A stretch of DNA of 64,000 bases. Source: a virus. Position numbers and translations under genes: made by a program. Shown here piece after piece: positions 8,875-64,000 of this stretch (position 1 is the first letter of the stretch; every line of letters begins with the position of its first letter). The notes beneath the pieces were generated by a model, which did not search any database, was not told where the DNA came from, and saw nothing but the letters and a program-made list of their open reading frames with translations. Where the stretch lies: the IMG/VR virus record IMGVR_UViG_3300027772_000010, positions 35,834-99,833 of that record; one strand, 5' to 3'.

Positions 8875-9882
8875 ATGAACAGATTACAAGAATTAAAAAA
8901 TGTATTAAAAGTACAAACCTCTTCTTATGACCAATGGAGAATGTTTGCATTTATAATAAGATATATTACTAAATTTAACAATATTTCTTATTACACAGAT
9001 AATGGTAATGTATACATTACTAAAGGAAGTGCTAACTCTTACCCTTGTGTAGTAGCTCATATGGATACTGTTCACTCTATTGTAGAAGATTTATCATTAT
9101 TAACTATAAATGAGAACATTACAGGATTTAATAATGTTACTATGACTCAAACAGGTGTAGGGGGTGATGACAAAGTAGGTATATTTATAGCCTTACAATG
9201 TTTAAATCATTTTGACAATATTAAGTTAGTCTTTTTCAGAGATGAAGAAGTTGGTTGTCAGGGATCTTATCTAGCAGAAATAGACTTTTTTAACAATGTT
9301 AATTTTGTTTTACAATGTGATAGAAGAGGTAATAGTGATTTTATTGTTAATGCAGGAAGTGTAGAATTATCTAGTAAAGACTTTCAGAATGACATTATAA
9401 CTGTAATTAAAAAATATGGATATTCTTTTAATAATGGTATGATGACAGATGTTATGGCTTTAAAAGAAATTGGCTTACCTGTCTCTGCAGCTAATATTAG
9501 TTGTGGGTATTATAATCCTCATATGGAAAATGAGTATGTTAATATTCCAGATGTAATGAACTGTTTAGATATGGTTATAAATATTATTGCTAGTTTTGGA
9601 CATAAATCATACTATCATGTATACAATACAACAGTGTCTAAAAATAAAGACAAAAACTATAATTATAATTTTTTAAAAACTAATTATGGTATTTTAGAAG
9701 ATGATTATATTTTTGACACAACAGATTCTTATACATTTAACAAATCAGAAGAAATGGATTACAAAAAAGAATATTATTATTGTAAAAATTGCTTAACTTA
9801 TGAATATAAAAGTAGTTTACAAAATGATTTATGTGATTTTTGTATGGAATATGAAACTGAAAAAAACAATTATTTCCTTTAA
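8875..9882 (+). CDS. M28/M20-clan zinc peptidase
   Basis: AHMDTVH, GGDDKVG, DEEVG, DRRG and GYYNPH metal-ligand motifs. Confidence 0.8.
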   Translation: MNRLQELKNVLKVQTSSYDQWRMFAFIIRYITKFNNISYYTDNGNVYITKGSANSYPCVVAHMDTVHSIVEDLSLLTINENITGFNNVTMTQTGVGGDDKVGIFIALQCLNHFDNIKLVFFRDEEVGCQGSYLAEIDFFNNVNFVLQCDRRGNSDFIVNAGSVELSSKDFQNDIITVIKKYGYSFNNGMMTDVMALKEIGLPVSAANISCGYYNPHMENEYVNIPDVMNCLDMVINIIASFGHKSYYHVYNTTVSKNKDKNYNYNFLKTNYGILEDDYIFDTTDSYTFNKSEEMDYKKEYYYCKNCLTYEYKSSLQNDLCDFCMEYETEKNNYFL

Positions 9883-40253: not shown

Positions 40254-40742
40254 TTAATTTTCTAAGATATTTTCCTTAATATATAGTTCAATAATAAGTT
40301 TGTCAGAACTTAGTTTAAGAATGTTTAATAAATCATAAACACTATTTAACTCTTCAACTTGTTCTTCATTAAATTTATTAGCTAGTGTTAATAAATTATA
40401 ATCTCCTTCATCTAAAGCATGTTTAGCTAAAGCTCTACATTGCATAGTAGTCTCAGTTTCAATCTCTAATGTTTTATTTACTATTTCTTCAAAAGATTCA
40501 AACATATTTGGAGGTTCTGGAATACTATCTAACTCAGGCATTACATTAAAAGATAATAAATAATCTTTAGCCCAAGAAGCATGGTTTAACTCATCTTCAT
40601 AGTTTTTCTTCCAAAGTTGTGCAGCATTAAAGTAAGCTTTATCTTTAAGCCATAAATACATTTGCTCGTATTCTTTAGAAGTTTTTTGTTCTTGATTAAT
40701 TCTATAGTTTAATAGTTCTATAGTTTTTGGTGTTATTAACAT
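40254..40742 (-). CDS. Ferritin
   Basis: INQE....EY, EDELNHA, EIE and EEQVEE ferroxidase-centre pattern; 162 aa. Confidence 0.8.
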   Translation of the reverse strand: MLITPKTIELLNYRINQEQKTSKEYEQMYLWLKDKAYFNAAQLWKKNYEDELNHASWAKDYLLSFNVMPELDSIPEPPNMFESFEEIVNKTLEIETETTMQCRALAKHALDEGDYNLLTLANKFNEEQVEELNSVYDLLNILKLSSDKLIIELYIKENILEN

Positions 40743-47924: not shown

Positions 47925-50900
47925 TTAGCAATAAACATCGTTATCTTGATTAAAGATAGAATTTGATGTAATATCATTATTTTTTGTATCCATTATAATA
48001 TTTTTATCATAATCAATTATAACAGAGTTGTCAGCATAAAAGTTCTCAGGATCTAAATCTACAGAATAAAAGTCTCTAGTATTTTCATTTAATGTAATTA
48101 AAGTATCCCACAAATAATCCATAATATTATCTAAATTAAAATTTAATTTTAAATTTTCTAATTTTATTTTTTGAGATGTATTAGTAGATGTTTCATTAAT
48201 ACTTGTAGGAATAATTTTAAAAATTTGACTTATTGTTGGGTTTTTATCAGAAGCAGTTCTAAGTCTATTTAAAAAAACATTATAATTTCCTTGTAAATCT
48301 TGTGATGTAAATACATCAGAAATACTAGTTTTAAGAATAGTTTTAATATTTTCTAAATCTTCTTGTGTTCCTTCAAAAAATTCTCTTAACTTAGGCGTTT
48401 GCAAAGGAATAATAATAGGATTTTCTCCACTTTTTTCTAATATTAAAAATACTCCGTTATTAGTTAAATTATCTGCAGGTATATTTAATTCAGAAACTTC
48501 TCTATTAACAAAAGGATTAACTAATTTTTTAACTTTATCTACTTCATATACAAAAGCAATAGTAGACTTAAATCCATTAACTTTATTTAAAAAGTTATTT
48601 ATTCTTATAGGTTGATTATTAAATAAAAATGCATCTTTTTTAACTTTTTTAATTTTAACTTTAAATGGTTGTACAGTAAAAGTATTACCTACCTTAGTAA
48701 TAGTTAATTTATTTCTTACTTGGGCATTCCTAGTATTTCCCTTATTAGCAGGAATAATTGCTACTAAAGCATTATTTACTACTACTCCTAATGCTGCATT
48801 ATTTCTAAAATCTTTTTCAGTCTTTAAAGTGTTATTGTATTTATTTTCTGTATCTAATACAACTATTTCTCCTTCTTGATTAGTTAAATCATTGGCATAA
48901 ATACTATTTAATATACTAGATTCAGGAATAGTTATTTTAGATATAATATTTTCTTGTTGAAAAGAATTAATTGGTTTTTTATTTATATCTTTAAGTACAT
49001 AAACATTATTAGACTCTATTTTATTACTAAAAAATAATCCATTATCTTTAAAAAGTTTTTCAACCTCTGTTTCAGTTAATATTTTATTATTAAACTTTTT
49101 ATTTAATTCTTGATTATTAAAAATACTTACATCATATTGTTTGTTATTTTGCTCATCATAAGTAATATTAAATTTAACATAAGTTACTCTATTTAAAGAA
49201 ACAATATTACTATCAGCTTCATCTTCAAATCCTTCTAAGACATTATTTGAACTAGTTTCAAAATTAACTTGATTAGCTTGACCTGTAATTAATTGTGTTG
49301 CAGGATCTAATACAGGTTTACCTTCAAATTCTGCAGGAGTTTGATTTTCTAAAACAGCTAGTTCTGCATTATATTTAGCTTCTGTTGGTAAAATTATTTC
49401 AACATTAGATGTAGTAAAAATTTGAGGAAGCGTAGCATTAATATTAAACTCTCCGTTAGTTTTTTTTTCTGTTATTGATAGACCTCCCAAATTTTCTTCC
49501 CATACATTATTCTCATTTAAAAACAATGGTACTAATTCATAAGATTCCGTACCTTTTTTTGTTATTTTTTTTCTAACTATTAAAGCATCACCATCCTCAT
49601 TTTTAAATATAGTTCCTTTAGGTATATTTTCTAAAAAATCAAATTTTTCTTGCGGTGTTGATTTTCTACTAATTATATCAAGTCTTCTTCTTTCTATATC
49701 AGCTTTAGCATCTGTAGTAGGTTTAGTTTCTAAATTAGAAACAATAGTTATCCCTTCTATTTCTATTATAGGCACCCCTGTTGCCTGACTTAACTGAAAT
49801 TCATCTGGATATGAATCTTCATTATTAGGTAACTCAGGGTTATTATCTTCTTTTACTAACTTTTGTTGCTCTAAAATATAATCTGGTATTTCTTCTTCTG
49901 TTATAGCTTCTGTATTAGTAATAATTTCTGCAGGTTTATCTATAACTAAATTAGGAATACTTAAATAATTATTTATTAATATTAAAGCTGACTTAGATAT
50001 ATTAATAGTATTAAGTTTTGTTTCTGTAAAATTTAAAAAAGAAATTGTATTACCAAAATCACTAATATCATATTTAACTTTTGAAACAATTACTTTTGTA
50101 TTACCAACTTTTACAGATGGTATTTTTTCTAATAATGTTTTATAAAAACCTAATTGTTTTGACCAACCATTAGTTTCTTTATCTCTTAAATTTTCAGTAG
50201 CTTTTCCTTTATTATCTGAAATAGTTTTTAAGTCAATAATATCTACTTTACCATCTTTACCTACAGCAATAATATCCATAGTACCTGCAACACCTATTGT
50301 ATTATCATTAATACCTGTTGAACTTTCTCCTATAAATTTTAAACCATCATAAGCATGATAAAGCACTCTTTCTTCTGTTATAAATTTAAATCCCTGTTGT
50401 ATTAATGAATCTCTTTGCTCTATTAAATCATTAAACATTTTAACATAACTTTCTTTTTTTAAGTTAAATGTTATTCCATTACTTCCAAAATAATCTAATT
50501 GGGCTTGTAATATAGCATCCATGTTTTCTTTAGTAACACTTAAATTACCAAAAATAAACCTTCCTAATGAATCAAAAAGATTTCCAACATTTGCACCAGC
50601 AATTAAATATTCATTAGAGTTTAAATCATCTCTTTCTACAGAAGTAACTCTTTTATATTCTTTATCATTAATAATGTAGAAATTATTTGTTATTTCATCT
50701 TCATCAAAGTCAGACTTTAATTTACTATTTTTTTCAATAAGACTAATAACATTATCTTGTACATTATCACTTAACTGAGTAGGAGTTTCAACAGCAGGTT
50801 GTTCTTGATTTTTTGCAGAATTTTCTTCAATTGTTTTAATATAATTATTAACTAATAATGCTCCATTTTTTTGGTCAAAATTATTAATTAAATTTTCTTG

Positions 50901-53900
50901 ATTATTATTTATCAAACTAATATTATAATTTAACTTTATAATGCCATCAGTAACAACAGAAGTTAGTGTATCTAAATTAACATTTTTATAATTTTGAATA
51001 TCTCCAACATATCCCATATCTTCTAATATAGAAAACATACCTAATAATAAATCAGGATCATTATCAAATGCTTGTATTAATTCATCTTTATTGAAAGATA
51101 CATAATAAGGTAAAACTGTTTCTTCTAATAATTGTTTATTATATAATCTATTATTCTTTTTTAATTTCTCTAAATCTTGTTTAGTTGCTTGACCATTTAT
51201 TAGATTATCAAAAATTTTTCTATATTCTTTTATTTTAGTTAATCTTTCTTTATCACCTTTAATTGATTCTTCTAATTGTTTATCAATAGTTACATCTTTA
51301 ACAGTTCTTTTACCTTCTGCATCAGTTATTAAGGCTTTTCTATTTAAAGTTTGAGATTTTAAACCATTATTAAATCTTGAATTAAATTCTTTATGAGTTT
51401 TTTTAATTTCTTTTAATTTATCAGCTTTAATTCTAATTAAATTTTTTATTTCATTTTCTTTTTCTTCAGATAAATTATCAATAAGTCCTGGAGATAAATA
51501 AGAATTTAATCTATCTTGTAATTGTTCATTTATTTCATTAAATTCTGTATCTAAATTATTTAAATTTTCTTGAGCATCAAAGTAACCATTAGTGTAAGTA
51601 TCAGTAATAGAAGTTAAAGATTTATCTAAACTTTTATTAGTTTCATTTAAAGTCTTTAATTCTTCTCGCAATTCCTTATCTTTATCAATTGCTTGCCCTA
51701 TTTCTAATAAAGAATTAATTTTATCAATTCTAGTTTGATTAGCTAATTTATTAAATAAATTTTGTTGATAAATACTTCTAACAAATCCTGCTTGAGGATT
51801 TAATAACTCAGGGTTATTTTCTATAGCAGTTTGATATTGAGTTTTAAATTGATTTTGAATTGGTCCTAAATTTTTATTAAATAAATTAATTAAATTTTTA
51901 GTACTTTTTTCTCTACCTACAATATTATTGTATTCTTTTATATTGTTAATAGTTATTTCATCTAAAGTATCTTTACCTATTATTTCAATATATTTATTAT
52001 AATCAAAAAATCCATTTTCATCTAAATAAGGAGTTAAATCTAATTGATTATTATTATTTGGAATACCTAAAGATTGAGCTAAACTAGCTACTACTTTTTC
52101 TTTATTAACTTTATTTAATTCTGAATTTAAAATAACATTATCAAAAGTTTTGCTACCATTAAAACTTTCAATATTTTTTAAATTAACTCCTACACTTTTT
52201 AATATAGATTTATGTAATGGATTTTCAAAATCTAATTTAGAAATAAAATCATTATCTAAATTAAAGTCTTTCTTAGTTTGTTCAAAGTTATTTTTAATAG
52301 TATCAAAAGATTCAATAAGATTATTATAAGTTTCTTGAGTTAAACTATTTCCAGAAGTACTAGGATTGCTAATAAAAGTTGATAATAAACTTTTAAATTT
52401 ATTAGGATCTTTTATAGCTGCTTGCAATGCATTTATAGTATTTATGCCATTATCTTTTTTAAATATATCATTTACATTTTTATAACTTTCTATTGAAGAA
52501 GACATAATTCCTCCAGTTAAGCCTGCAATTAATGCAGTTTCTGGATCTAAAAATCCTAAATCTTTTAATGTTTCTTTATTATATTCTTCATTACCTGTTA
52601 AAGAAGCATTAGCTGCATTAGCTAAAACTTGTGCTAAAGGCTCTAAAATAGTTTCTTCAGATGCTTCTTGCAAACCTTCTTTACGAAAAGATTTAGCTAC
52701 AGTTCCCATTCTATCACTAAATCTAGCTACTGCATAATTTCTTAATTCTTTATTAAATAAATAATCTTTTACACTAGGATTTTTAATATCCACTAAATCA
52801 TCTGTAAGAGATTTAATTACCTTTGGTATATCTTCAACAAAAACATTGTTTGCTTCTTTCTTTACTCTATCTGCTACAAAATCAGCTCCTATTTGTCTAT
52901 ATTTATTTTCTAGACCAGGAGTAAGTTGAGAAACTGCTGATATAGCTCCTGAAGTAATTAATACTTGAGCTAACCCTGGATCTAAACCTTGTTCTTTATA
53001 ATTTTTTTCAACGTCATGTTTTACTTCTGCATAAGTAGATGTAGTATTAATAAATTGTCCTGCAATTTTACTAAAGTTTCTGCTAGCTTTTGCAGCAGTT
53101 ATTCCTTTTGCACCTAATCTTAATAAAGTTGCTTCTAATAAAGGAGCTGCTGCTCCTTCTGTAAATATAGTGGCTGCAACTTCTGCTGCAATAGTAGGAG
53201 CTTCTTCTGCAATACCTACTGCAATAGCTTTACTAGTTCCTCCCAAAGCAGCAGATGTACCTCCAGGCATACTATAAATATCTCCAGCTTGCTTTTTTAA
53301 TTCAGAACTATTACTATAAAAATAATTTTCAATTAAATCTCGTTGAGAACCTTTTACAGAAATGCTCATATCATTAGCTTTTACATCAACAACTTGTCCC
53401 AATTTATTAAAACCAATTTGGTAGTTATTATTTTTATCAGCTTCAAGATTTACCCATTCTACTCCTTTATTAAAAAGACTAATATTTCCTTCATCTTGTG
53501 CAAAATTAATAGCTTTCCATAAATCAGCACTATATTCTAATTTTCTAGCAGATTCTGATTCTGGATTAATAGTTGTAGCTAATGACCCTACTTGTTGTTT
53601 ACCATATTCTGCAATATAATTTTTTCCTTTATCTAATTGTTGTAAATAATAATTTACTCTATCAGCACTAAATAAACCAGATTCTTTTGATCGCAATTCT
53701 AATTTATCTTGGGCTGCTTGTTGTCTTTCATTTAAATTTTTAGCAACTTTTAAAGCTTGTAATTCATTAATTTTTTCAGCTTGAAACATTTTTAAACTCT
53801 GACCAATTCTAGCCCCATTTAAATTATATAATGCTTCATTGTTAGATGCAATTTCTTGAAAATCAGGATCTTGAATTAAACTTAAAATTTTTTGTTGTTG

Positions 53901-55316
53901 TTCAGGAGTACTATATAAATTTTGTATAGTTCCCATTAATTGATTAGAATTATTTTTTAAACTAGGAAAATTTTCTAATAATGCATTAAATTTTTCATCA
54001 AATACATTAATATCTTTATCCCAACCATTTTTAATAATTTTTTGTTGTAGTCTATCTTTAGACCCTGCATTACTAAACTCTACTTTATCATAATAATAAT
54101 TAGTAGTATTTTCTAAAGCATTTTTAGTATTTATATCTGACATGTAATTTTTTACTTTTACATTATCTCTTTCTGTGCTTACTATATTATTTGCAAACCA
54201 ATCAAATATAGCATTACCTGTTGAAACTTTATTTGTTTCTTGTTCTTTATTTAAATCTTTAATAGTTGTTTCATCTTCTAAATTCATAAACTTTTTAGCA
54301 GACTCTAATAAACCTTTTATAGGTTTTTCTAAACTAGCTGTAATTTGTGGTAATTCATTTACAGGAGTATTTTTTAATATTTGAATAGGATCAATATTAT
54401 AATTTTTTAAATTTTGTAAATCTTTTTTTCCTCCTTCAAGTTGTTTTTTTGCGCTATTTATTTCTTCTTTTCTTTTTGAATATGTATCATATATATTATA
54501 AATTCCAATAATTGGAATTATTGATGAAGGCTTGTTTAAAGGATTGTTTTCTTTTGCTAAATTTAAAAATTCATTTTGCTTAGAAAGATTTTCTACTTTT
54601 TTAGTATATGAATCAATACCTTCATTTAATTCTTCAACACGTTTATTTTTTTGATTAATATCTGTAATAAGTCCTCTTCTATTAGTTAAAGGTTGTGCTT
54701 TTAATTTATTTATTTCTGCGTTATATTTTGCAGTAATAGGTTGTAAATCTTTATTATATAATAACTTTATATTAGGAGGTAATTGATCTAAACTTGGATT
54801 TTCTTCTCCAGCCATTGTTAAAAGAGCTAAATAATTTTTTTTTATTTTTTCACTTTCTTTATTATAATTATCGTCAATAACACTTTTTTGTTCTTCAAAA
54901 GAAGATCCTTGTCTATATCCTACATTTGCAAGTTCACTAGCTTTAGCATTTGTGTTAATAGGTTTAGGTGTTTCAATATTGCTTTGACCATACCCTTTTA
55001 CACTTTTAGATTGATTTACATTAGGAATTTGATTACTAATTTTTTGTTGAGGAGTCTGCTCTTCTTCTCCTGTAAAAAAATTTGATACTTTATCTATTAC
55101 TTTACTAAAAGCAGTTTGTTCTTCTTCTTGTTTTACAACAGGTTTAGGTGCAACAGGTTGTTGTTGCATAGGTTTTTGTTGGGTAGGTTGTTGTTGATTA
55201 AAAGAACTACTTCTTACTCTTTGAATTTCATTAGCTATAGCTTGAGCATCTTGTGTATTCCCCGCACTATCAGCAGCTTGTAAAGCTGAATATAATTTAT
55301 TTAAATATTCATTCAT
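47925..55316 (-). CDS. Giant virion cargo protein with an internal PD-(D/E)XK nuclease domain
   Basis: 2463 aa; YKRVTS...GVAGTMD...IIDLKT...QLGFY (about 50100-50680); EASEE-type helical/hydrophobic segment. Confidence 0.7.
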   Translation of the reverse strand: MNEYLNKLYSALQAADSAGNTQDAQAIANEIQRVRSSSFNQQQPTQQKPMQQQPVAPKPVVKQEEEQTAFSKVIDKVSNFFTGEEEQTPQQKISNQIPNVNQSKSVKGYGQSNIETPKPINTNAKASELANVGYRQGSSFEEQKSVIDDNYNKESEKIKKNYLALLTMAGEENPSLDQLPPNIKLLYNKDLQPITAKYNAEINKLKAQPLTNRRGLITDINQKNKRVEELNEGIDSYTKKVENLSKQNEFLNLAKENNPLNKPSSIIPIIGIYNIYDTYSKRKEEINSAKKQLEGGKKDLQNLKNYNIDPIQILKNTPVNELPQITASLEKPIKGLLESAKKFMNLEDETTIKDLNKEQETNKVSTGNAIFDWFANNIVSTERDNVKVKNYMSDINTKNALENTTNYYYDKVEFSNAGSKDRLQQKIIKNGWDKDINVFDEKFNALLENFPSLKNNSNQLMGTIQNLYSTPEQQQKILSLIQDPDFQEIASNNEALYNLNGARIGQSLKMFQAEKINELQALKVAKNLNERQQAAQDKLELRSKESGLFSADRVNYYLQQLDKGKNYIAEYGKQQVGSLATTINPESESARKLEYSADLWKAINFAQDEGNISLFNKGVEWVNLEADKNNNYQIGFNKLGQVVDVKANDMSISVKGSQRDLIENYFYSNSSELKKQAGDIYSMPGGTSAALGGTSKAIAVGIAEEAPTIAAEVAATIFTEGAAAPLLEATLLRLGAKGITAAKASRNFSKIAGQFINTTSTYAEVKHDVEKNYKEQGLDPGLAQVLITSGAISAVSQLTPGLENKYRQIGADFVADRVKKEANNVFVEDIPKVIKSLTDDLVDIKNPSVKDYLFNKELRNYAVARFSDRMGTVAKSFRKEGLQEASEETILEPLAQVLANAANASLTGNEEYNKETLKDLGFLDPETALIAGLTGGIMSSSIESYKNVNDIFKKDNGINTINALQAAIKDPNKFKSLLSTFISNPSTSGNSLTQETYNNLIESFDTIKNNFEQTKKDFNLDNDFISKLDFENPLHKSILKSVGVNLKNIESFNGSKTFDNVILNSELNKVNKEKVVASLAQSLGIPNNNNQLDLTPYLDENGFFDYNKYIEIIGKDTLDEITINNIKEYNNIVGREKSTKNLINLFNKNLGPIQNQFKTQYQTAIENNPELLNPQAGFVRSIYQQNLFNKLANQTRIDKINSLLEIGQAIDKDKELREELKTLNETNKSLDKSLTSITDTYTNGYFDAQENLNNLDTEFNEINEQLQDRLNSYLSPGLIDNLSEEKENEIKNLIRIKADKLKEIKKTHKEFNSRFNNGLKSQTLNRKALITDAEGKRTVKDVTIDKQLEESIKGDKERLTKIKEYRKIFDNLINGQATKQDLEKLKKNNRLYNKQLLEETVLPYYVSFNKDELIQAFDNDPDLLLGMFSILEDMGYVGDIQNYKNVNLDTLTSVVTDGIIKLNYNISLINNNQENLINNFDQKNGALLVNNYIKTIEENSAKNQEQPAVETPTQLSDNVQDNVISLIEKNSKLKSDFDEDEITNNFYIINDKEYKRVTSVERDDLNSNEYLIAGANVGNLFDSLGRFIFGNLSVTKENMDAILQAQLDYFGSNGITFNLKKESYVKMFNDLIEQRDSLIQQGFKFITEERVLYHAYDGLKFIGESSTGINDNTIGVAGTMDIIAVGKDGKVDIIDLKTISDNKGKATENLRDKETNGWSKQLGFYKTLLEKIPSVKVGNTKVIVSKVKYDISDFGNTISFLNFTETKLNTINISKSALILINNYLSIPNLVIDKPAEIITNTEAITEEEIPDYILEQQKLVKEDNNPELPNNEDSYPDEFQLSQATGVPIIEIEGITIVSNLETKPTTDAKADIERRRLDIISRKSTPQEKFDFLENIPKGTIFKNEDGDALIVRKKITKKGTESYELVPLFLNENNVWEENLGGLSITEKKTNGEFNINATLPQIFTTSNVEIILPTEAKYNAELAVLENQTPAEFEGKPVLDPATQLITGQANQVNFETSSNNVLEGFEDEADSNIVSLNRVTYVKFNITYDEQNNKQYDVSIFNNQELNKKFNNKILTETEVEKLFKDNGLFFSNKIESNNVYVLKDINKKPINSFQQENIISKITIPESSILNSIYANDLTNQEGEIVVLDTENKYNNTLKTEKDFRNNAALGVVVNNALVAIIPANKGNTRNAQVRNKLTITKVGNTFTVQPFKVKIKKVKKDAFLFNNQPIRINNFLNKVNGFKSTIAFVYEVDKVKKLVNPFVNREVSELNIPADNLTNNGVFLILEKSGENPIIIPLQTPKLREFFEGTQEDLENIKTILKTSISDVFTSQDLQGNYNVFLNRLRTASDKNPTISQIFKIIPTSINETSTNTSQKIKLENLKLNFNLDNIMDYLWDTLITLNENTRDFYSVDLDPENFYADNSVIIDYDKNIIMDTKNNDITSNSIFNQDNDVYC

Positions 55317-56694: not shown

Positions 56695-59600
56695 TTACCT
56701 ACTAATATTATTAAAAAGAAAGTCTAATGGAGATCCTGCAAAAGCATTATTAAAAGAACCTGTATTACCCATAATTTGATTAGCAAATCTTTGTCCTTGT
56801 TCTCCTCTAAACATATCTGGTTTTGCAGCCATTATATTTAATAATTGTAATTTTTGATTTTGTTCTTTTTGAGTATTTTCACCCATACTTTTAACATATT
56901 GAGAATACAATTCTGAATCTGTAACAGCTTTTTTACCCAATAAGTTTCTTTTAAGATTTGCTAAATTTTGAGCAGCTGTAAGATTTTCATTTCTTACATC
57001 TATATTCTCTCCTAGTAATCCTTGTTGAAGACCTTGAGTTGTATTATAAAGTCCTACATTTTTTTCATTTAAAGCACTTAAAGTATTTCCTACTTGATTC
57101 ATAGCTGTTGCACCTGCATTAGCAATATTACTAGCTAAAGTACTCCAATCTCCTGTTTGTCCTGCTAAAGCATTTGCAGAATTTCTTTGAGCTCTTTCTA
57201 TATTATAAAGAATGTTTCCTATAGGAATTTCATTCTTTCTACTTCTAATATAAGTATCAGGAGTTTCCATTATATATAAAGGATCTAAATCCATTAATGC
57301 ATTTGTATAAGCTTCATTTGCTGCAAGTCCTCTTCCTAATTGTCCTTCTAATAGTCCATAATTAAACCTATTTTGCATAGGCATTTGTCTTGCACCAGCT
57401 ACTGCATTAATCCTTGCTAATTCTAAATTAGCTGCTTTTTCTGCAGGAGTTTGAGGAGTATTTACTTTAGCAGGTTGTTGTTTTGGTGGCACTGCCTTTA
57501 ATTGTTGTATTCCTTTCAATTTAGGAGTGTCTCCTAATGTAGAAATATTGTAAGGATTTGGCCTCATTCCTGGAGTTTTTTTAAGATAAGCATTATATAT
57601 TTTTTCTCCTTCAGGACTATCTAATATTTTTTCAGCATTTTTAATCAATTCTGCAGTGGGCTCTATACCTAATTCTGTAAAATAATCTTTAAAAACTGTT
57701 TCTTTACTAACATTTTTATCGTAAGTTTTACCTCTTGTTTTTTCAACAAAATATCTAGCATCAAAAAATGGATTATTTCCTCCAAAATAAGTTTTATAAC
57801 CAGGAGTTTTACTTTGTCTAACATTTGCAAGATCCATTTGTTCTACAGCTTGAGCTAATGGTAAATATTCTTCATAAGCCATATTTTGTGGAAAATTAAC
57901 TTGTAGTTTTCCCACTTTACGCCCGTTTATTACTTCATTTCCAAGATTAGGATTATATTTTAAAATATTGTTATCTGTTAAATATTTATAAGTATTAGCA
58001 ATTGGATTAGTCCAAGTCACTGTATCATTAACATCATCAAAAGTATATCCAGCTTCTGCAGGATATAAATTTCTGTCTATTCCTACATTGCTGTCTGTAC
58101 CATCTTGATATTTATTAACCATCCCCCCATAAGCCATCATAGGATTTTCCATAGGTAATTGCATCTGCCCTTCAGCCAATTCTTTACCAGCTTTTATTAA
58201 GTCATTCATTTGCATACTTAAATCTACAAAGGATTGTTTATTACTTTCTTTTAATTTATCAGTATTAAAAGAATTAGGAGTAGATTGTTTTTGATATTTA
58301 TTTTTAGCATACTCAGAAATTTCAGCAGGAGATATTTTTTTATTTTTTCCTTTTGTAATTTGTTCTATTTGAATCATCCTTTCTTTTGCTACTTCAGGAG
58401 TAAACATATCAATTAGTTGTTGATATTGTGCTGGAGTGTATTTGTTTCTTGAACTTTGAATATGAGAGCCTGTAGGTAATACATCTGTAATTTCATTATC
58501 AGACATACTTTCATGAGATTGAGTAGCTTTTACAGATTGAATAGTACCATCAGGTAATACTACTTGTTCAGGTTGACCTTGATAAGACTCTGTTTGCACT
58601 GGCATTCTATTATACAAAGTATCTAATGCATCTATTTCTCCACCATCTTGTTTTTTCCACTTAGCAGCATTTCTAGCAAAGTTAGCCATTTGTACTACAT
58701 TAGTAGGATATTTATCTTTATTAGCCATTACTTTATTAGCAGCCTCTTGTACTCCCATTCCTCTACTAGCAGCCCATTCAGTAAACTTACCTTTATTAGC
58801 AGGGTTGATATTAATTCCTCCACCCATAGCATACATAAAGTCATTATCTTCATAACCCATCATAGGCCCTGCTATCATTCCACCACCAGGGTAATTCATA
58901 GGATACATAGAGTTATTTTGAAAATCTTGTGGAGCACCTTTTGGTGCATCTAGTAATCCTCCTAAAAAATATTGTGTAGGATATTCTACATATCCTCCCA
59001 TATTATAATAATCTCCAGCTAACATTAACTCTTCCATTTCAGGAATAATTCCACCATCAGCCCAAGTAGACCTAGCATAAGCTCTAAAGTAAGGATTGTT
59101 TTTTAAATTAGTTTTATGTCTAGCATAAAAGGCTTCTTTACCATATTTAGATTTACTTCTTTCCCCCATATTAGGATCACCAAAATATTTTTTAGTACCA
59201 TCAGGGCCAGTAACAACATGAGTTTTACCTTTTCTATCATTACTCTTTCTTACAGTATAACCTCCATTTCCGTACTCATCTACCATACCACCCATAGCCA
59301 TATTAGCAATAATATTATCTTGTACAGACTTAGGTAAAGCTTTAAATCCAGGATTGTTAATTCCTCCACCATTAGCAAAATTTAATCTCATACCTGCATT
59401 TATTGCATTTGGATTTAAATCTGCATTAATTGATAATCTATCATTTAAATTATAAGACCCTGTTAACCCAAAATCATCTATTTTTGCTCCATCTAAACTT
59501 ACATATCCACCAAAATAGGGTCCAAATGAAAAGTTTTTATCATAATACATAGGATTTATATTTCCCCTTACAAAATCTTCTCCAAACCTAGGTTCAACAG

Positions 59601-60843
59601 ATGTATTAACATCTAATGTTGGGTTAAAAGGAAAGGCTCTACCTTTAATTGCCATGTTAGCTATTATGTTATTTTGTACAGATTTAGGTAAAGCTTTAAA
59701 TCCTACGTTATCTATTCCACCACCTTCAGCATATTCATTTATATAACCACCCATTGCAGCTTTTTTCCAACTACCACCTTTTTCTTTATACCATTTAGCA
59801 GCAAAACCATTTGCGTAAGCTGAATTACCAGTTATTGTTACATAACCATTTTGTTTCATTACCCATGTTCCAAACTTAGTTGTAGGGCACCATACGTCAG
59901 ATATACCTGCATCTTCTTTATGTAAATTTTGAGTGCTTTCTGTATTTCTTCTAATAAATGTCCAACTCATTATTGTTGGATTATGTTTTTTAACTACACT
60001 ACAAACTCTATATCCAAGGAGAACAGCAGCTATTTCCATAGCTAATCCATGGTCTTTTTCTTTTTGACTAAAACCATAAGTTTGTTTATCTTCTTTTTTA
60101 GTCAAGCCTTTATCATGCCCATCATATACAATTCCTGAAGCAAAAAAAGATTGAATTTGAGATATACTCATTTTAAGAATATTTTTTACCCAATTATCTT
60201 TTTTAAAGAATGTATTTAAACTTAACCCATTTCCATTATCAGTTAATTCTGCAGATATTTTAATAGACATATGTTTTGTTATGTCTTTTGCTTCAACTAA
60301 GTTATCAGGGTATTTAGAATTAGATTCTGCCAATACCCATTTATGATTAGGAGTACATTTAATATCAAAATTTGTTTGTTTTTTAAACAATCTAATTAAA
60401 GGAGCATCATTAAAAAATTGTAATGTTAGAATAGGAGTCCATTCATTTTTATTTGTTTCTTGGTTATAAGCTAATATATCTTCGCCTACACTTAATTCAT
60501 TATAATGTTTCCACCCTTCTTTAGTTAAAGCTTGGGAATCCATAGGAACACAAGGATATACATCATATTTAGCTTTAGCAGCAGCTTTAGCTTTACTCCA
60601 TAATGAAGGATTAGTAGGAACATTTCCCCCACTAGCCATTTGTTCTACCATTTCTTCTTGAGTACCCATCATTTGCTCTTCAGAATTTTTTGGAGCATTA
60701 GCCATCATTTCTTGTTGTTGGTATTGAGCAATAATTTCTTGAGCTTCAGGGTATGCCTTAAAGAAAGCTTCTTGTGTTGGGAATTTCTTATAAAACTCAG
60801 CTTCTGTTTTTACTCCTGCTATCTGTAATAATAATTCTTTCAT
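56695..60843 (-). CDS. Modular virion-type protein with about 14 xxxGG-delimited modules; contains an intein
   Basis: MASGG, AAMGG, YAEGG, FANGG, MAMGG, YGNGG, WADGG, YNMGG, YFLGG, YPGGG, YAMGG, KQDGG, MAYGG, plus the variant YQDGT. Confidence 0.75.
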   Translation of the reverse strand: MKELLLQIAGVKTEAEFYKKFPTQEAFFKAYPEAQEIIAQYQQQEMMANAPKNSEEQMMGTQEEMVEQMASGGNVPTNPSLWSKAKAAAKAKYDVYPCVPMDSQALTKEGWKHYNELSVGEDILAYNQETNKNEWTPILTLQFFNDAPLIRLFKKQTNFDIKCTPNHKWVLAESNSKYPDNLVEAKDITKHMSIKISAELTDNGNGLSLNTFFKKDNWVKNILKMSISQIQSFFASGIVYDGHDKGLTKKEDKQTYGFSQKEKDHGLAMEIAAVLLGYRVCSVVKKHNPTIMSWTFIRRNTESTQNLHKEDAGISDVWCPTTKFGTWVMKQNGYVTITGNSAYANGFAAKWYKEKGGSWKKAAMGGYINEYAEGGGIDNVGFKALPKSVQNNIIANMAIKGRAFPFNPTLDVNTSVEPRFGEDFVRGNINPMYYDKNFSFGPYFGGYVSLDGAKIDDFGLTGSYNLNDRLSINADLNPNAINAGMRLNFANGGGINNPGFKALPKSVQDNIIANMAMGGMVDEYGNGGYTVRKSNDRKGKTHVVTGPDGTKKYFGDPNMGERSKSKYGKEAFYARHKTNLKNNPYFRAYARSTWADGGIIPEMEELMLAGDYYNMGGYVEYPTQYFLGGLLDAPKGAPQDFQNNSMYPMNYPGGGMIAGPMMGYEDNDFMYAMGGGININPANKGKFTEWAASRGMGVQEAANKVMANKDKYPTNVVQMANFARNAAKWKKQDGGEIDALDTLYNRMPVQTESYQGQPEQVVLPDGTIQSVKATQSHESMSDNEITDVLPTGSHIQSSRNKYTPAQYQQLIDMFTPEVAKERMIQIEQITKGKNKKISPAEISEYAKNKYQKQSTPNSFNTDKLKESNKQSFVDLSMQMNDLIKAGKELAEGQMQLPMENPMMAYGGMVNKYQDGTDSNVGIDRNLYPAEAGYTFDDVNDTVTWTNPIANTYKYLTDNNILKYNPNLGNEVINGRKVGKLQVNFPQNMAYEEYLPLAQAVEQMDLANVRQSKTPGYKTYFGGNNPFFDARYFVEKTRGKTYDKNVSKETVFKDYFTELGIEPTAELIKNAEKILDSPEGEKIYNAYLKKTPGMRPNPYNISTLGDTPKLKGIQQLKAVPPKQQPAKVNTPQTPAEKAANLELARINAVAGARQMPMQNRFNYGLLEGQLGRGLAANEAYTNALMDLDPLYIMETPDTYIRSRKNEIPIGNILYNIERAQRNSANALAGQTGDWSTLASNIANAGATAMNQVGNTLSALNEKNVGLYNTTQGLQQGLLGENIDVRNENLTAAQNLANLKRNLLGKKAVTDSELYSQYVKSMGENTQKEQNQKLQLLNIMAAKPDMFRGEQGQRFANQIMGNTGSFNNAFAGSPLDFLFNNISR
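59297..59724 (-). repeat. Direct repeat pair encoding GGGIxNxGFKALPKSVQxNIIANMA
   Basis: Copies at about 59651-59724 and 59297-59370. Confidence 0.85.
59824..60552 (-). mobile_element. Intein (243 aa) with a degenerate LAGLIDADG remnant
   Basis: Cys1 CVPMDSQALTKEG; block B TPNH; block F DVWCPTT; block G TGN followed by extein Ser; removal restores DVYP-SAYANG. Confidence 0.88.
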
Positions 60844-60854
60844 AATTTATATGT

Positions 60855-63800
60855 TTATAGTTGGTCTAACCAACCAGTTTTATTTTGTTTTTTATTAATT
60901 TTTTGAGAAACTTGGCCACCATATTTATACTCTTCTATATTATTAAAGTCATAATCAATATAGCCACCATCTTGCCCAAATCCTGTTATTTTACCTATAA
61001 TGTTTCCAATCCCTTTCATACCTGTTGCTCCACCTTTCATGTTGCCCAGCATACCTTTTAATCCGCCCATATTTTTGACCATTCCTACTCCACCTTTAAT
61101 GTTTCCAAATAAACCTGAAGCAGTATCCATCATATTTCCAAAGTCTTGGGAAGACCTAACTAGTCTATTACCTGAAACATATCCTGATTTATCATAATTA
61201 GATAAAGCATCTTTAGCTTGAAAAGTTCCAACAGTACTACCTACTCCTTCTCCTACATCTCCAATACCACTACCAATCATTCCTACATTTCCTGTAGCAG
61301 CTCCACCAATAACTTTTGCAGCACCACTTGTTACATTACCTACTCCTTTACCTACTGTATAACCACCTGTTCTAGTTAAAAATGAATCTCCTACAATATC
61401 TTGTGAAATATCTCCTATAATTGGAACAGTGCTCATCATTCCTAAATAAGCACCTACAGGTTCTTTAGCCCAATCCATAAAACCCCAATCTACTTTATCA
61501 TCTTCAAAAGATTGTCTATCTTTTCTTACTTTTGTATGCATAAAATCATTTTCATATGCTGACTCTAAATCAGCTAAAGAAGCTCTATTAGCATTACTAT
61601 TAAATATTCTAGGGCTTCTTTGTCTGGAATAAAAAGGCATCATTCCACCATATTGATATTTACCAACTCTTCCCCCATACATATTAACTAAATCATTTAG
61701 ATTAACTCCCATATCATAAGGAGTAGTATCATCACTAAAGTGTACTCTAGGAACTGGATTATAGTTTTCGTGAAATACATTACTTTTATGAATATATTCA
61801 GGATACCCTACAGGTAACATATCCATATTACCACCATTTTGGTATTTTCTTAAATATCCTCCATATTTATTTATAAAAGGAACTCCTTTCCATGTAGAAG
61901 AATTTATTGAAGGACCCATAGTAGAGCCCGTAGTAGTATTTTGATTAGGATAATAATAATCAAATAATCCTGCATTTTTTAAAGCTTGGTCATTTTCAAA
62001 ATTTAATTGCTCATCTGTTTTTCCCCCACTAAGTGGTGCTTGCCAATTACTTATATCAGGCATTACATTATTTCCTCTCATTGTAGGTTGAGAAAACTGA
62101 CTCATTAATCCTGTTACTTGACTAACCCCTTGATTTACAGACCCTAATACATCATTAATTCCTGAAAATACACTTGGCTTGTTAATTTCCTCTTCCATGT
62201 TTTCAATGTTAGTAGGCATAACAGATCTAAAGTAACTATTATCTTGAGATAGTTGAGGACCTACTCCAAAACCTTTATAAGCATCTTGATAATTAAGGTA
62301 TCCTCCTCCTTGATATTTTTTAAATTTATTTTTCATATCATTATATATTAAACCTCCATCTTCTTTTTTATGACTATAATCTATTCTTTTAGATGAAGTT
62401 TTTTCTCTTTTAAATTTTTCTTTTTCTGCACTACTTAATTCAGATGCAGTTTTAGGGGTATCACTACTTATTCTTTTAGAAGGTCTGCAAGCAGGATAAC
62501 CTTTTCTTTTCTCACCCTTTTGTCTACCACACTCTTTACCTGTTTTAACATCTACCCACTTCTCAGCAAACCATCTATCTAATCCCCCATGTTGGCCACC
62601 ATCTTTCATTATAGGTATCTCTGTTACTTTATTTGTAGGAAATACATAGTCTCCTGTATTTGGGTATAAAACTACTCCATTAGCTGCTACAGGAAAAGCC
62701 ATATTATTAGTAGTTATATAATTACTATTAATTATTTTTTTAGGTGTAAAATTATCTAAATTAGATATTAAATAACCATTATTATCATTTACTTTTCCTC
62801 CTTGTTTAAAATCTCCAAGTTTAGCATTCTTTAATAATAAATCTATATCTTTAGCTTCAAATCCAAAACTAGGATAATAATCTTGTCTATCTCTTGATTC
62901 TTCACCATATCCAGACACTCCTTTTAATATCATTGGTAAAGCATCTCTATCAATATTATTTTCATACATTTCTGTATAAATTCTATTAAAATGTTTTTGC
63001 TGGGCATCTCCTTTTAATTTTTTAGTAGAATAAAACCAATTTGGATATTCTAAATATTCTGAAAAACCTGGTGTACTAGTAGTTAATAACTTTGATTCTG
63101 AAACATTATCTACTGGAATATCATAAGCCCATTTTGGAATATTATTATTTACATCTCCACCACCTTGGAACTCAGCTGGAACAGCCATTGGTTGTCCAGG
63201 ATATACTTTTGGTGCATTTTGTTGTAAAATAATATCAGACCTTAATTTTGTTTTAGGGTCATAATAAATTTTATCTTCTAGCTCAAAAGGGTTAAACATT
63301 AGACTCTCTAATTCATCTAATAGAGGAGTTGCTTTTTTTAAATATTTACCCATAGTTGGGTTAATATTTCTATCAATAAATTGATTTGCATATCTTGTAG
63401 GATCAAAATCAAATCTATCTGAATATTTTAAATATTCTCCTTTAGCATCTTTACCTTTAGTTACATAATGTTTTCCCATAACAAAATCATCATAAGGGTA
63501 TAAATCAAATGCTGGGTTAACAGGGTCAGGTACTCCATCATCATTAGGTACTCCCCAATTCCTTACAGCTTCATCAGATAAAAGAGTATCAGGGTAGAGT
63601 TTATTATAATCTCTTATTCTATATTTATTTGGAGCAGTTTGCTCAAATGCTCCTGTTTTAGAAGGCAACCCTAAATACATTCTAAGAGCATCTTGCTCTC
63701 TAGCAAGAGGTTCCATAAGTTCATTACTATAATCTTTTCCTTCTATACCAACTGCTGTTCTTAAAAGTTGGTTTAAAGGAGTAAAGTATCCTTCTTCAGT

Positions 63801-64000
63801 ATCTAAGTTACCTAAGTTTTCTTTTAAAGATAAGGCTTTTTTTAATTTAGATAATGTGCTTTTTTTATCTTCTACCTTTCCTCCTTTTTGATAAGTAGAA
63901 GCTCCTTGTTTTTGTAGTGTTTTCTTTGCTGCTATTTTTGCCATTACCAAGGATGGTGTATGAGTTATGTGTGAAGCAGCTACAGGGTTAAACGTGTTGT
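60855..64000 (-). CDS. Second modular xxxGG-delimited virion-type protein (5' end probably outside the window)
   Basis: YQKGG, FQGGG, FKQGG, MKDGG, KEDGG, YQGGG, NKYGG, YQNGG, NMYGG, YQYGG, GQDGG, YKYGG; frame open from 63950 to the window edge; Gly-zipper region near the C-terminus. Confidence 0.75.
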   Translation of the reverse strand, partial: NTFNPVAASHITHTPSLVMAKIAAKKTLQKQGASTYQKGGKVEDKKSTLSKLKKALSLKENLGNLDTEEGYFTPLNQLLRTAVGIEGKDYSNELMEPLAREQDALRMYLGLPSKTGAFEQTAPNKYRIRDYNKLYPDTLLSDEAVRNWGVPNDDGVPDPVNPAFDLYPYDDFVMGKHYVTKGKDAKGEYLKYSDRFDFDPTRYANQFIDRNINPTMGKYLKKATPLLDELESLMFNPFELEDKIYYDPKTKLRSDIILQQNAPKVYPGQPMAVPAEFQGGGDVNNNIPKWAYDIPVDNVSESKLLTTSTPGFSEYLEYPNWFYSTKKLKGDAQQKHFNRIYTEMYENNIDRDALPMILKGVSGYGEESRDRQDYYPSFGFEAKDIDLLLKNAKLGDFKQGGKVNDNNGYLISNLDNFTPKKIINSNYITTNNMAFPVAANGVVLYPNTGDYVFPTNKVTEIPIMKDGGQHGGLDRWFAEKWVDVKTGKECGRQKGEKRKGYPACRPSKRISSDTPKTASELSSAEKEKFKREKTSSKRIDYSHKKEDGGLIYNDMKNKFKKYQGGGYLNYQDAYKGFGVGPQLSQDNSYFRSVMPTNIENMEEEINKPSVFSGINDVLGSVNQGVSQVTGLMSQFSQPTMRGNNVMPDISNWQAPLSGGKTDEQLNFENDQALKNAGLFDYYYPNQNTTTGSTMGPSINSSTWKGVPFINKYGGYLRKYQNGGNMDMLPVGYPEYIHKSNVFHENYNPVPRVHFSDDTTPYDMGVNLNDLVNMYGGRVGKYQYGGMMPFYSRQRSPRIFNSNANRASLADLESAYENDFMHTKVRKDRQSFEDDKVDWGFMDWAKEPVGAYLGMMSTVPIIGDISQDIVGDSFLTRTGGYTVGKGVGNVTSGAAKVIGGAATGNVGMIGSGIGDVGEGVGSTVGTFQAKDALSNYDKSGYVSGNRLVRSSQDFGNMMDTASGLFGNIKGGVGMVKNMGGLKGMLGNMKGGATGMKGIGNIIGKITGFGQDGGYIDYDFNNIEEYKYGGQVSQKINKKQNKTGWLDQL

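What the first reader, a model, noticed from the sequence alone, without database searches (positions are those of the whole stretch)
56695..64000. Two 'beads-on-a-string' polyproteins with about 25 [aromatic/M/K]-x-x-G-G junction motifs: candidate phage di-glycine polyprotein processing system
Seen: both ORFs consist of short, unrelated modules (8-150 aa) whose boundaries fall at a recurring motif (MASGG, YAEGG, FANGG, YQNGG, KQDGG, YKYGG...). Some spacers consist of little more than the motif (YINEYAEGG, MVDEYGNGG). Several modules look like self-contained mini-proteins that I recall as stand-alone ORFs in other viruses: NVPTNPSLWSKAKAAAKAKYDVYPSAYANG..., GLDRWFAEKWVDVKTGKECGR...YPACRP, RKSNDRKGKTHVV...FGDPNM...FYARH, INPANKGKFT...ANFARNA. 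Known: cleavage after GG matures adenovirus ((M/L/I)xGG) and ASFV (GG-X) virion polyproteins and ubiquitin-like precursors. Inference: the phage packs a variable cocktail of small effectors into the capsid as polyproteins that are released by a GG-specific protease, or the motif is a repeated capsid-loading tag. The junctions may also act as module-swapping points.
Basis: partly seen in the sequence, partly recalled or inferred. Interest (0 to 1): 0.88.

Follow-up and report, generated by a model that had tools for sequence, protein, structure and literature searches.

The report
Gly-Gly seams in crassvirus cargo proteins
Two large proteins that this marine crAss-like phage most likely carries in its particle and injects are strings of small swappable modules, each joint marked by a short peptide (aromatic/Met-x-x-Gly-Gly); the pattern is real, widespread and not described in the papers I could search, but nothing shows that the joints are cut.

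Summary
The 1382-aa ORF (56695-60843, minus) and its upstream neighbour (60855 to beyond the window end) have 35 GG runs in 2411 aa. The rest of the window has 28 in about 17,000 aa. Of the 35, 26 have Tyr/Phe/Trp/Met within three residues upstream (0 of 5000 shuffles reach this).

The genes follow the tail-ring and muzzle genes and precede the giant virion proteins, so they sit where PhicrAss001 has cargo proteins C1/C2.

Ends of homology between orthologues fall within 5 aa of a GG in 52-57% of cases, against 17-19% by chance. Strain variants with 95-99% identical flanks differ by a whole cassette bounded by FQxGG and FKQGG.

One module occurs in 2059 protein clusters. In 138 of 139 copies GG precedes it, and in 139 of 139 TWxxGG follows.

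PhicrAss001 gp45 carries the same seams, and its natural length variants differ by GG-bounded deletions.

Cleavage is unproven. No known GG-specific or prohead protease was found, and three gp45 GG sites lie within a stretch that the published cryo-EM study reports as resolved. My re-analysis of the published gel data is inconclusive.

This scan found the same motif earlier in at least 14 other genomes. A 243-aa intein splits one module.

The parts
60855..64000 (-). Cargo protein A (C1-position protein), incomplete. The 5' end lies beyond the window. 1047 codons are visible; a close variant is 1296 aa.
   Evidence: Orthologues directly follow the ring-1 and muzzle-like genes. 19 GG runs.
56695..60843 (-). 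Cargo protein B, 1382 aa. It has a conserved N-terminal leader, a variable string of modules and a conserved C-terminal body.
   Evidence: 16 GG runs. BFVD top hits are crAss 'Cargo protein 1' proteins.
60625..60843 (-). Conserved leader of protein B (residues 1-73), ending in the first seam, QMA[S/M]GG.
   Evidence: Conserved in all 7 orthologues, and module content diverges right after the GG.
60553..60624 (-). N-extein of the small module NVPTNPSLW...DVYP.
   Evidence: The intein-free allele in L001 is 60% identical over 30 aa to a 56-aa stand-alone ORF of phage P-SCSP2, E 1e-10.
59824..60552 (-). Intein, 243 aa, Cys98 to Asn340, followed by Ser341.
   Evidence: tblastn E 7e-22 to 5e-20 among the listed hits, to the inteins of phi92-like DNA polymerases. 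L001 has the exact intein-free junction YP|SAYANG.
59773..59823 (-). C-extein of the same module (SAYANGFAAKWYKEKGG).
58639..59772 (-). Variable string of modules of protein B (residues 358-735), with 13 of its GG seams.
   Evidence: Cassette gain, loss and replacement between orthologues. The AF2 model shows folded beads and floppy seams.
59362..59646 (-). Beta-rich module (residues 400-494) inserted between two copies of the GINNPGFKALPKSVQxNIIANMA unit.
   Evidence: Present only in the window and L001. Poorly predicted by AF2.
59050..59259 (-). Module YTVRKSNDRKGKTHVV...TWADGG (70 aa).
   Evidence: Found in 2059 cluster representatives, at any position. GG precedes 138 of 139 copies and TWxxGG follows 139 of 139. 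AF2 pLDDT 70-95. Replaced by a DUF5754 module in L004.
58639..58812 (-). Module ININPANKGKF...NAAKWKKQDGG.
   Evidence: Homologous to PhicrAss001 gp45 residues 373-423, E 8e-4 for the pair. Absent in L003 and L007. AF2 pLDDT 93-98.
56698..58638 (-). Conserved C-terminal body of protein B (residues 736-1382), with only 2 GG runs.
   Evidence: No detectable similarity to the gp45 C-terminus by hhalign.
62796..63155 (-). Variable cassette of protein A between AEFQGGG and DFKQGG.
   Evidence: A variant with 95-99% identical flanks (P0154) has a different, weakly DUF6973-like cassette in this slot.
62391..62594 (-). C-half of DUF5872 (GLDRWFAEKWVDVKTGKECGR...).
   Evidence: Pfam PF19197, E 3.5e-14. 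69% identical to an 86-aa stand-alone ORF of phage P-SCSP2.
61728..61886 (-). Stretch with the invariant pair YGG...YQNGG, weakly similar to the portal-bound domain of gp45.
   Evidence: BLASTP E 0.002 to gp45 440-492. Profile E 0.005. The GG pairs are invariant in 34 homologues.
60969..61361 (-). Gly-rich hydrophobic segment of protein A. It is a candidate membrane-inserting part; its GG runs are of a different kind from the seams.
   Evidence: Read from the sequence and conserved in orthologues. gp45 has a comparable Gly-rich predicted transmembrane segment.
60858..60968 (-). C-terminal tail of protein A: two seams, then ...KTGWLDQL.
   Evidence: Orthologues both start (..SSGWLD) and end (..GWLDQL/EL) with GWLD.

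Best explanation
These are the two cargo (ejection) proteins of a marine crAss-like phage. They are packed in the head and tail lumen and pushed into the host ahead of the DNA.

Each has a conserved leader and a conserved body, with a variable string of small independently folding modules in between or alongside. The modules include small basic modules and a DUF5872 half; relatives also carry SLT-like, kinase-like and HExxH modules.

The peptide [Y/F/M]-x-x-G-G-[hydrophobic]-[V/I] is the standard seam between modules. I read it as staying uncut in the virion, with three roles:
1. A flexible hinge that lets any two modules be joined and lets the chain pass the narrow portal and tail channel bead by bead.
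2. Conserved flanks that probably serve as a generic handle recognised by the packing or ejection machinery.
3. Because every module ends and starts the same way, recombinants with joints at seams stay functional. That explains the cassette swapping.

Shown: the motif, its restriction to the cargo proteins, its position at exchange points, and the folded-bead/floppy-seam model.

Inferred: virion location, lack of cleavage, and the handle function.
For: - Gene position: it follows CrAss_Ring_1 (E 4e-27) and a muzzle-like gene, and precedes the giant proteins, as in PhicrAss001.
- BFVD best hits are crAss 'Cargo protein 1' proteins, E 1.7e-5.
- Motif enrichment. It is confined to the two cargo proteins in a complete 105-kb relative.
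- Homology break points lie within 5 aa of GG in 52% and 57% of cases, against 17% and 19% at random.
- Cassette replacement between 95-99% identical variants, exactly between two seams. GG-bounded unit loss in G001 and in PhicrAss001-type gp45.
- Codons at the seams vary, so the conservation is on the peptide, not on DNA.
- AF2: modules pLDDT 70-98, seams below 50.
- Against cutting: gp45 residues 425-552, which hold AFGGWLNTQGG...NEGG, are reported as a resolved, portal-bound compact domain.
- No C5, C48, C39, MPTase-PolyVal or S78 protease in G001, and a Crassvirales review never mentions a protease.
- None of 150 homologues ends in GG.
- Some proteins start with only MGRGG before the first module.
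- Co-packaged giant proteins do not avoid the motif: 12 observed, 13 expected.
Against: - No experiment on these proteins exists.
- The homology of protein A to the solved gp45 domain is weak: E 0.002-0.005, and the Pfam crAss_CARG1 model does not hit.
- In my peptide-mass re-analysis of the published PhicrAss001 gel, gp45 is not seen at or near its full size of 90.7 kDa. The 12-copy portal protein is seen.
- Natural 729-aa gp45 variants leave only 66 residues between two segments that lie about 420 A apart in the virion. One uncut chain cannot occupy both sites there.
- The two-sided, P4-P1-like conservation and the short 7-residue spacers also fit a protease site.
- An unknown or host protease cannot be excluded.
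Confidence: 0.5

Rival explanations
1. Polyprotein processing. The seams are cleavage sites of a Gly-Gly-directed protease, phage-encoded but unrecognised or taken from the host. It releases the modules as free small proteins inside the capsid or after injection.
For: - The motif resembles the adenovirus (M/I/L)xGG-X and ASFV GG-X sites (established knowledge).
- Several modules are free-standing tiny genes in other viruses.
- Short N-terminal leaders ending in the motif recall cleaved capsid-targeting peptides.
- gp45 was not found at full size in the published gel peak lists.
- The 729-aa gp45 variants are hard to fit with a single tethered chain.
- The 2955-aa giant has an HEILH motif, and some orthologues carry HExxH modules.
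Against: - No CE-clan, C39, MPTase or prohead protease was detected in a complete relative. The ClpP-like hit is 13 bits, below the cut-off.
- Three GG sites lie inside the gp45 segment that the cryo-EM paper reports as resolved.
- No homologue ends in GG.
- Co-packaged proteins do not avoid the motif.
- Cleavage at GG pairs 7 residues apart would yield useless nonapeptides.
Confidence: 0.3
2. Address tag only. The motif is a repeated docking peptide that binds the portal, the ring proteins or a scaffold, and so loads the cargo into the procapsid. Its position at joints is secondary.
For: - The motif or the related GWLD tag sits at protein starts and ends as well as at joints.
- Both resolved gp45 segments begin at or a few residues after a GG site.
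- 39 of 150 homologues share a conserved C-terminal GYxFEIL-like tail, so address-like peptides are a theme in this family.
Against: - AF2 gives no defined structure for the motif.
- The number of motifs follows the number of modules rather than staying fixed.
- No binding partner was tested.
Confidence: 0.12
3. No function of its own.
For: Each module type keeps its own variant, for example TWxDGG or KKQDGG.
Against: - Unrelated modules (an SLT-like module, a weakly DUF6973-like cassette, a DUF5872 half, a beta-rich module) are all flanked by the motif.
- The residues before a given module vary in detail but keep [YFM]xxGG whatever precedes them.
- Free-standing versions of the modules lack the motif.
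Confidence: 0.08

Closest known systems
Cargo protein C1 (gp45) of Bacteroides phage PhicrAss001 (Bayfield et al. 2023, PMC10172136; Pfam crAss_CARG1 PF25725)
   Same: - Same gene slot after the ring and muzzle genes.
- gp45 itself has FSAYGG, FAEGGG, KAFGG, AKDGG, NAFGGWLNTQGG and FAYGG.
- It shares the ININPANKGKF-type module.
- It has a Gly-rich hydrophobic segment.
- Its natural variants gain and lose GG-bounded cassettes.
- BFVD top hits are C1-type proteins.
   Different: - The Pfam C1 model does not match, and pairwise similarity is weak.
- Here the functions are spread over two larger proteins with many more modules.
- The seam motif and the cassette exchange are not mentioned in the papers read.
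Polyvalent proteins of phages and conjugative elements (Iyer, Burroughs, Anand, de Souza, Aravind 2017, PMC5512222)
   Same: Many unrelated effector-type domains in one virion-delivered polypeptide, with mosaic evolution.
   Different: - No MPTase hub was detected here.
- The modules are mostly tiny (8-150 aa).
- That paper does not mention a linker or glycine motif: 0 occurrences of either word.
GG-directed viral maturation: adenovirus protease (M/I/L)xGG-X, ASFV pS273R GG-X
   Same: A short motif ending in Gly-Gly, repeated in virion-internal proteins.
   Different: No CE-clan protease gene was found, there is no evidence of cleavage, and the host is bacterial.
Proteolytically processed head and ejection proteins of T4 and phiKZ/SPN3US-type jumbo phages
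   Same: Packaged cargo proteins carry a recurring short motif, and short N-terminal targeting peptides are removed (established knowledge; PMC10052503 was listed but not read).
   Different: Those motifs end in Glu and depend on a T4 gp21-type prohead protease. That family was not searched for here, and no protease of the families tested was found.

Membership tests
Crassvirus cargo protein C1 (gp45-like) | Gene directly downstream of the tail-ring and muzzle genes and upstream of the giant RNA-polymerase-associated proteins | tested here: met
   In relatives L001 and L002 the order is CrAss_Ring_1 (E 4e-27), a 1672-aa muzzle-like protein, protein A, protein B, a 445-aa protein, then a giant. 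The downstream half of this order is seen in the window. PhicrAss001 has the same order.
Crassvirus cargo protein C1 (gp45-like) | Match to the compact portal-binding domain (Pfam crAss_CARG1, PF25725) | tested here: not met
   No hit at E <= 0.1 in either protein, nor in six frames of G001 (the control genomes cannot ring for this family). Only weak similarity: protein A 705-757 against gp45 440-492, E 0.002 and 0.005.
Crassvirus cargo protein C1 (gp45-like) | Structural resemblance to C1-type proteins | tested here: inconclusive
   Foldseek against BFVD: the three best hits are 'Cargo protein 1 compact domain-containing protein', E 1.7e-5 to 3.7e-4, but TM-scores are below 0.2 because the model is a flexible string.
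Crassvirus cargo protein C1 (gp45-like) | Presence inside virions and ejection into the host | not testable with these tools
   Uncultured phage, no proteomics.
GG-processed viral polyprotein (adenain / pS273R type) | Cognate CE-clan or other GG-specific protease encoded by the virus | tested here: not met
   PF00770, PF02902 and PF03412 give no hit in the complete relative G001. No protease family turned up among the window ORFs that were scanned, which were not all of them, apart from an M42/M28-like aminopeptidase in the early arm.
GG-processed viral polyprotein (adenain / pS273R type) | Products with ends at the GG sites | tested here: inconclusive
   The closest studied homologue, gp45: GG sites lie within the resolved residues 425-552. 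However, gp45 was not detected at full size in the gel peak lists, and bands 11-13 are not held.
Polyvalent proteins (Iyer et al. 2017) | Several unrelated effector domains in one phage late-region polypeptide | tested here: met
Polyvalent proteins (Iyer et al. 2017) | MPTase-type zincin hub domain | tested here: not met
   PF18818 gives no hit in G001. HExxH motifs in some orthologues and in the 2955-aa giant were seen by eye only.
Intein | Cys at the start, Asn at the end followed by Ser/Thr/Cys, homology to known inteins, and an intein-free allele with an exact junction | tested here: met
   Cys98, Asn340 and Ser341. tblastn E 7e-22 to 5e-20 among the listed hits, to phi92-like DNA polymerase inteins. 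L001 reads YPSAYANG without the insert.
DUF5872 (PF19197) | Match to the Pfam model | tested here: met
   C-half in protein A: E 3.5e-14, profile positions 52-112. The N-half-like module in protein B is not hit by the model, but it is 60% identical to a stand-alone ORF that lies three ORFs upstream of the C-half ORF in phage P-SCSP2.

The most novel reading that the evidence does not exclude
The seams are cleavage sites of a still unrecognised Gly-Gly-specific protease. Crassviruses, including the abundant human-gut ones, would then package polyproteins and release a strain-specific cocktail of small effectors. That would be a maturation system of the adenovirus/ASFV kind in tailed phages.
Probability: 0.27. 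Interest if true: 0.85.

Novelty: new variant of a known kind. Interest (0 to 1): 0.62.

Why it matters
Crassviruses are among the most abundant phages in the gut and are common in the sea. What they inject with their DNA is largely unknown.

A universal seam peptide would give three things:
- a simple rule for cutting these huge 'hypothetical' proteins into functional modules;
- an explanation for why assemblies break in these genes, namely strain-level cassette exchange;
- a hypervariable injected payload that probably takes part in the arms race with the host.

PhicrAss001 gp45 carries the same seams and is cultured, imaged and analysed by mass spectrometry. The question of cut or uncut can therefore be answered with existing data or one experiment.

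The natural 729-aa gp45 variants also challenge the published picture of one chain tethering portal and tail barrel.

Tried and rejected
- Gap boundaries in the MAFFT alignments gave no signal for protein A, because non-homologous cassettes are force-aligned. I replaced this test with BLASTP HSP ends.
- The seam is not a DNA repeat or recombination site. Codons vary and there is no long nucleotide identity.
- AlphaFold2 of protein A residues 560-880 gave pLDDT 37, so no fold search was run on it.
- phmmer of protein A against PDB sequences found nothing relevant.
- hhalign of the protein B C-terminal body against the gp45 C-terminus gave probability 0.2%. The 446-aa neighbour against gp46 gave nothing.
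- Foldseek against PDB with the string model found nothing at E <= 0.001.
- A search with the gp45 domain returned only near-identical sequences. It was useless for a profile but revealed the length variants.
- Motif avoidance in co-packaged proteins showed no signal.
- Peptide-mass fingerprinting of the PhicrAss001 gel bands identified the expected proteins in bands 3-9 but no gp45. Bands 11-13 were cut from the stored file.
- The 460-aa Gly-rich ORF of G001 is an unrelated FTNCTGG..SFGG repeat protein.
- Paper searches for DUF5872, DUF5754, and polyprotein or cargo terms found no description of the motif.
Full report
WHAT IS THERE. The region holds two adjacent minus-strand ORFs. Protein B (56695-60843) is 1382 aa. 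Protein A runs from 60855 to beyond the window end. The start at 63950 that the ORF list suggests is not real. Orthologues carry the same residues internally (...NTFNPVAASHITHTP...) and start 190-250 aa further upstream with MAKGKNKLNK..SSGWLD. The window is a low-GC phage. It has a plus-strand replication arm with PolA, ribonucleotide reductase and helicases, and three minus-strand giants of 2955, 2375 and 2463 aa. No whole genome is held for it.

WHAT KIND OF PHAGE AND PROTEIN. Seven related IMG/VR loci were found. In them the genes upstream of protein A are a CrAss_Ring_1 protein (E 4e-27) and a 1672-aa protein with a weak crAss muzzle C-terminal match. The order ring, muzzle, A, B, a 445-aa protein, giants is the order ring gp43, muzzle gp44, cargo C1 gp45, cargo C2 gp46, RNA-polymerase-associated gp47-50 of PhicrAss001. 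Proteins A and B therefore sit in the cargo slot. Foldseek against BFVD with a model of the protein B string returns crAss 'Cargo protein 1' proteins as its three best hits, E 1.7e-5 to 3.7e-4. The Pfam C1 model itself does not match. I file the proteins as working like C1-type cargo, with family membership only partly met.

THE MOTIF IS REAL.
- There are 35 GG runs in 2411 aa, against 28 in about 17,000 aa of the remaining ORFs.
- 26 of the 35 have F/Y/W/M within three residues upstream. Shuffles give 3.4 and 4.3 per protein and never reach the observed 14 and 12 (0 of 5000).
- From 141 distinct sites in orthologues the logo is Y/M (-3), A/Q (-2), D/M/Y/N (-1), GG, M/K/Y/I (+1), V/I (+2), N/D (+3), Y (+5). 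GG is often repeated 7 residues on.
- Glycine codons at the seams vary, so the peptide is conserved, not a DNA repeat.
- In the complete relative G001 (119,980 bases, about 105 kb unique) only the two cargo proteins carry the seam motif. One other ORF there passes the regex through an unrelated ...SFGG... repeat.

THE SEAMS ARE EXCHANGE POINTS.
- The alignment of protein B orthologues shows a conserved leader (1-73), a conserved body (from about 736) and a cassette-like middle. After QMA[S/M]GG comes either the NVPTNPSLW module or a KRKDGSYSKRGLWDNIRANKGSGK module. After YGNGG comes either the YTVRK module or a DUF5754 module, and both end in TWADGG. The ININPANKGKF module is present or absent.
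- BLASTP homology ends lie within 5 aa of a GG in 52% (n=33) and 57% (n=89) of cases, against 17% and 19% for random positions. These ends are not independent events.
- P0154 (1296 aa, from a 98-kb ENA contig) is 95-99% identical to protein A on both sides but has another cassette, weakly DUF6973-like, exactly between AEFQxGG and DFKQGG. The two ends of the assembly therefore seem to carry two strain variants.
- G001 shows the same. Its cargo genes are present at both contig ends as variants about 80% identical, one lacking a 35-aa GG-bounded unit.

HOW WIDESPREAD.
- An exhaustive search with the string region of protein B found 2059 cluster representatives at E <= 1e-3, and 837 at E <= 1e-10.
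- The 70-aa YTVRK module sits at any position in proteins of 170-2400 aa. GG precedes it in 138 of 139 copies and TWxxGG follows in 139 of 139. The five residues before it read YGKGG, YGNGG, FANGG, MANGG and so on.
- Only two proteins of 38-123 aa hold this module, and both are mini-strings.
- Other modules do exist as free genes. In Prochlorococcus podovirus P-SCSP2, tiny ORFs between the scaffold and capsid genes match the two DUF5872 halves: 69% identity to protein A, and 60% over 30 aa to the intein-free module of protein B. BFVD has 59-139-aa viral proteins matching single modules.
- The free versions in P-SCSP2 lack the seam motif.

STRUCTURE. AlphaFold2 of protein B residues 343-741 gives confident small domains. 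The YTVRK module has pLDDT 70-95, the ININPANKGKF module 93-98, and the PGFKALP helices 65-83. These are separated by stretches below 50 that include the GG spacers. This is the beads-on-a-string picture. Protein A residues 560-880 could not be modelled (pLDDT 37).

CUT OR NOT.

Against cutting:
1. No adenain, Ulp1, C39, MPTase-PolyVal or HK97-type protease is found in six frames of G001. The 170-aa 'ClpP-like' ORF reaches 13 bits, below the cut-off, and its window counterpart has no Pfam hit. A Crassvirales review never mentions a protease.
2. PhicrAss001 gp45 has the same kind of seams and shares a module with protein B. The cryo-EM paper reports clear density for residues 425-552, bound to the portal. 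That stretch starts AFGGWLNTQGG and also holds NEGG, so these three GG sites lie within the resolved stretch.
3. None of 150 homologues ends in GG. Some start with only MGRGG before a module.
4. Co-packaged proteins do not avoid the motif: 12 observed, 13 expected. The power of this test is low.

For cutting, or at least not against it:
1. The motif looks like known GG-X sites.
2. I re-analysed the published MALDI peak lists of the PhicrAss001 virion gel. Bands 3-9 give gp50+gp47, gp49+gp44, gp20, gp26+gp22, gp22+gp25, gp25 and gp23. gp45 (90.7 kDa) is never above decoys, although the portal, also 12 copies, is seen. Bands 11-13 are not held, so this is absence of evidence only.
3. Natural gp45 variants with a 99% identical portal domain are 685-842 aa long. 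The common 729-aa form lacks 113 aa, exactly from AFAEGGG to AKDGGG. That leaves 66 residues between the barrel-bound segment (214-245) and the portal-bound domain (from 425), which lie about 420 A apart. At 3.8 A per residue, 66 residues reach about 250 A. One intact chain cannot hold both sites in those phages; this is an inference.

The later mass-spectrometry study used one whole-virion band and gives no sizes.

VERDICT. The swap-point idea is supported. Cleavage is possible but unshown.
- Uncut seam (hinge plus handle): 0.5.
- Cleavage site: 0.3.
- Pure address tag: 0.12.
- No function of its own: 0.08.

The papers I could search do not describe the motif. The same scan noted it before in at least 14 other genomes, with follow-ups reaching similar conclusions.

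- the cassette swap between variants of one assembly;
- the GG-bounded length variants of PhicrAss001 gp45 and their conflict with the tether model;
- the 138/139 and 139/139 counts for the YTVRK module;
- the gel re-analysis.

ALSO PRESENT. A 243-aa intein (59824-60552) splits the 41-aa NVPTNPSLW module after YP. It is homologous to the inteins of phi92-like DNA polymerases, and L001 has the exact intein-free allele.

Noticed in passing
window 59824-60552 (-): A 243-aa intein (Cys98...Asn340|Ser341) sits inside a tiny non-enzymatic cargo module. It has Gly, not His, as its penultimate residue. It is homologous to the DNA-polymerase inteins of phi92-like coliphages, and an intein-free allele exists in L001.
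   Followed up: partly
window 62796-63155 (-) and protein P0154: A variant of protein A with 95-99% identical flanks carries a different cassette, weakly DUF6973-like (E 1.4e-4). It matches the fragment reported at the start of this genome record, so the assembly appears to end in two strain variants of one gene. G001 (the L007 record) shows the same at its two ends.
   Followed up: yes
L009 5988-8516 (PhicrAss001 gp45) and proteins P0222-P0341: gp45 variants with a 99% identical portal domain range from 685 to 842 aa through GG-bounded deletions. The 729-aa form leaves 66 residues to span the roughly 420 A between the barrel and portal sites. That does not fit a single tethering chain.
   Followed up: partly
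proteins P0220, P0221: Single proteins of 1331 and 1424 aa contain both a protein-A-like body and the protein-B C-terminal body. The two cargo genes are therefore fused or recombined in some phages.
   Followed up: no
window 39155-39169 (-), residue 348 of the 2955-aa giant: HEILH motif (…EPTIIHEILHSLSAKW…), a possible zincin site. No Pfam family matches this giant protein.
   Followed up: no
window 40254-40742 (-): A ferritin-like gene (Pfam E 4e-19) lies between two of the giant virion proteins.
   Followed up: no
window 8875-9882 (+): An M42/M28-like aminopeptidase gene in the early/replication arm (E 7e-8). It is the only clear peptidase family among the window ORFs I scanned.
   Followed up: no
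window 47925-55316 (-), residues 1643-1733: A weak PD-(D/E)XK nuclease match (E 5e-4, below the Pfam cut-off) in the 2463-aa giant.
   Followed up: no
150 representatives: 39 of 150 string proteins end with a conserved tail of the type ...TPEQ..L...GYxFEIL. Many start with MK(K/R)xLKKYxxGG. These may be terminal address peptides.
   Followed up: partly
G001 78844-80223 (+): A 460-aa protein made of about 15 repeats FTNCTGGxxSFGGxGGTASG. It looks like a beta-helix fibre and is unrelated to the seam motif.
   Followed up: no
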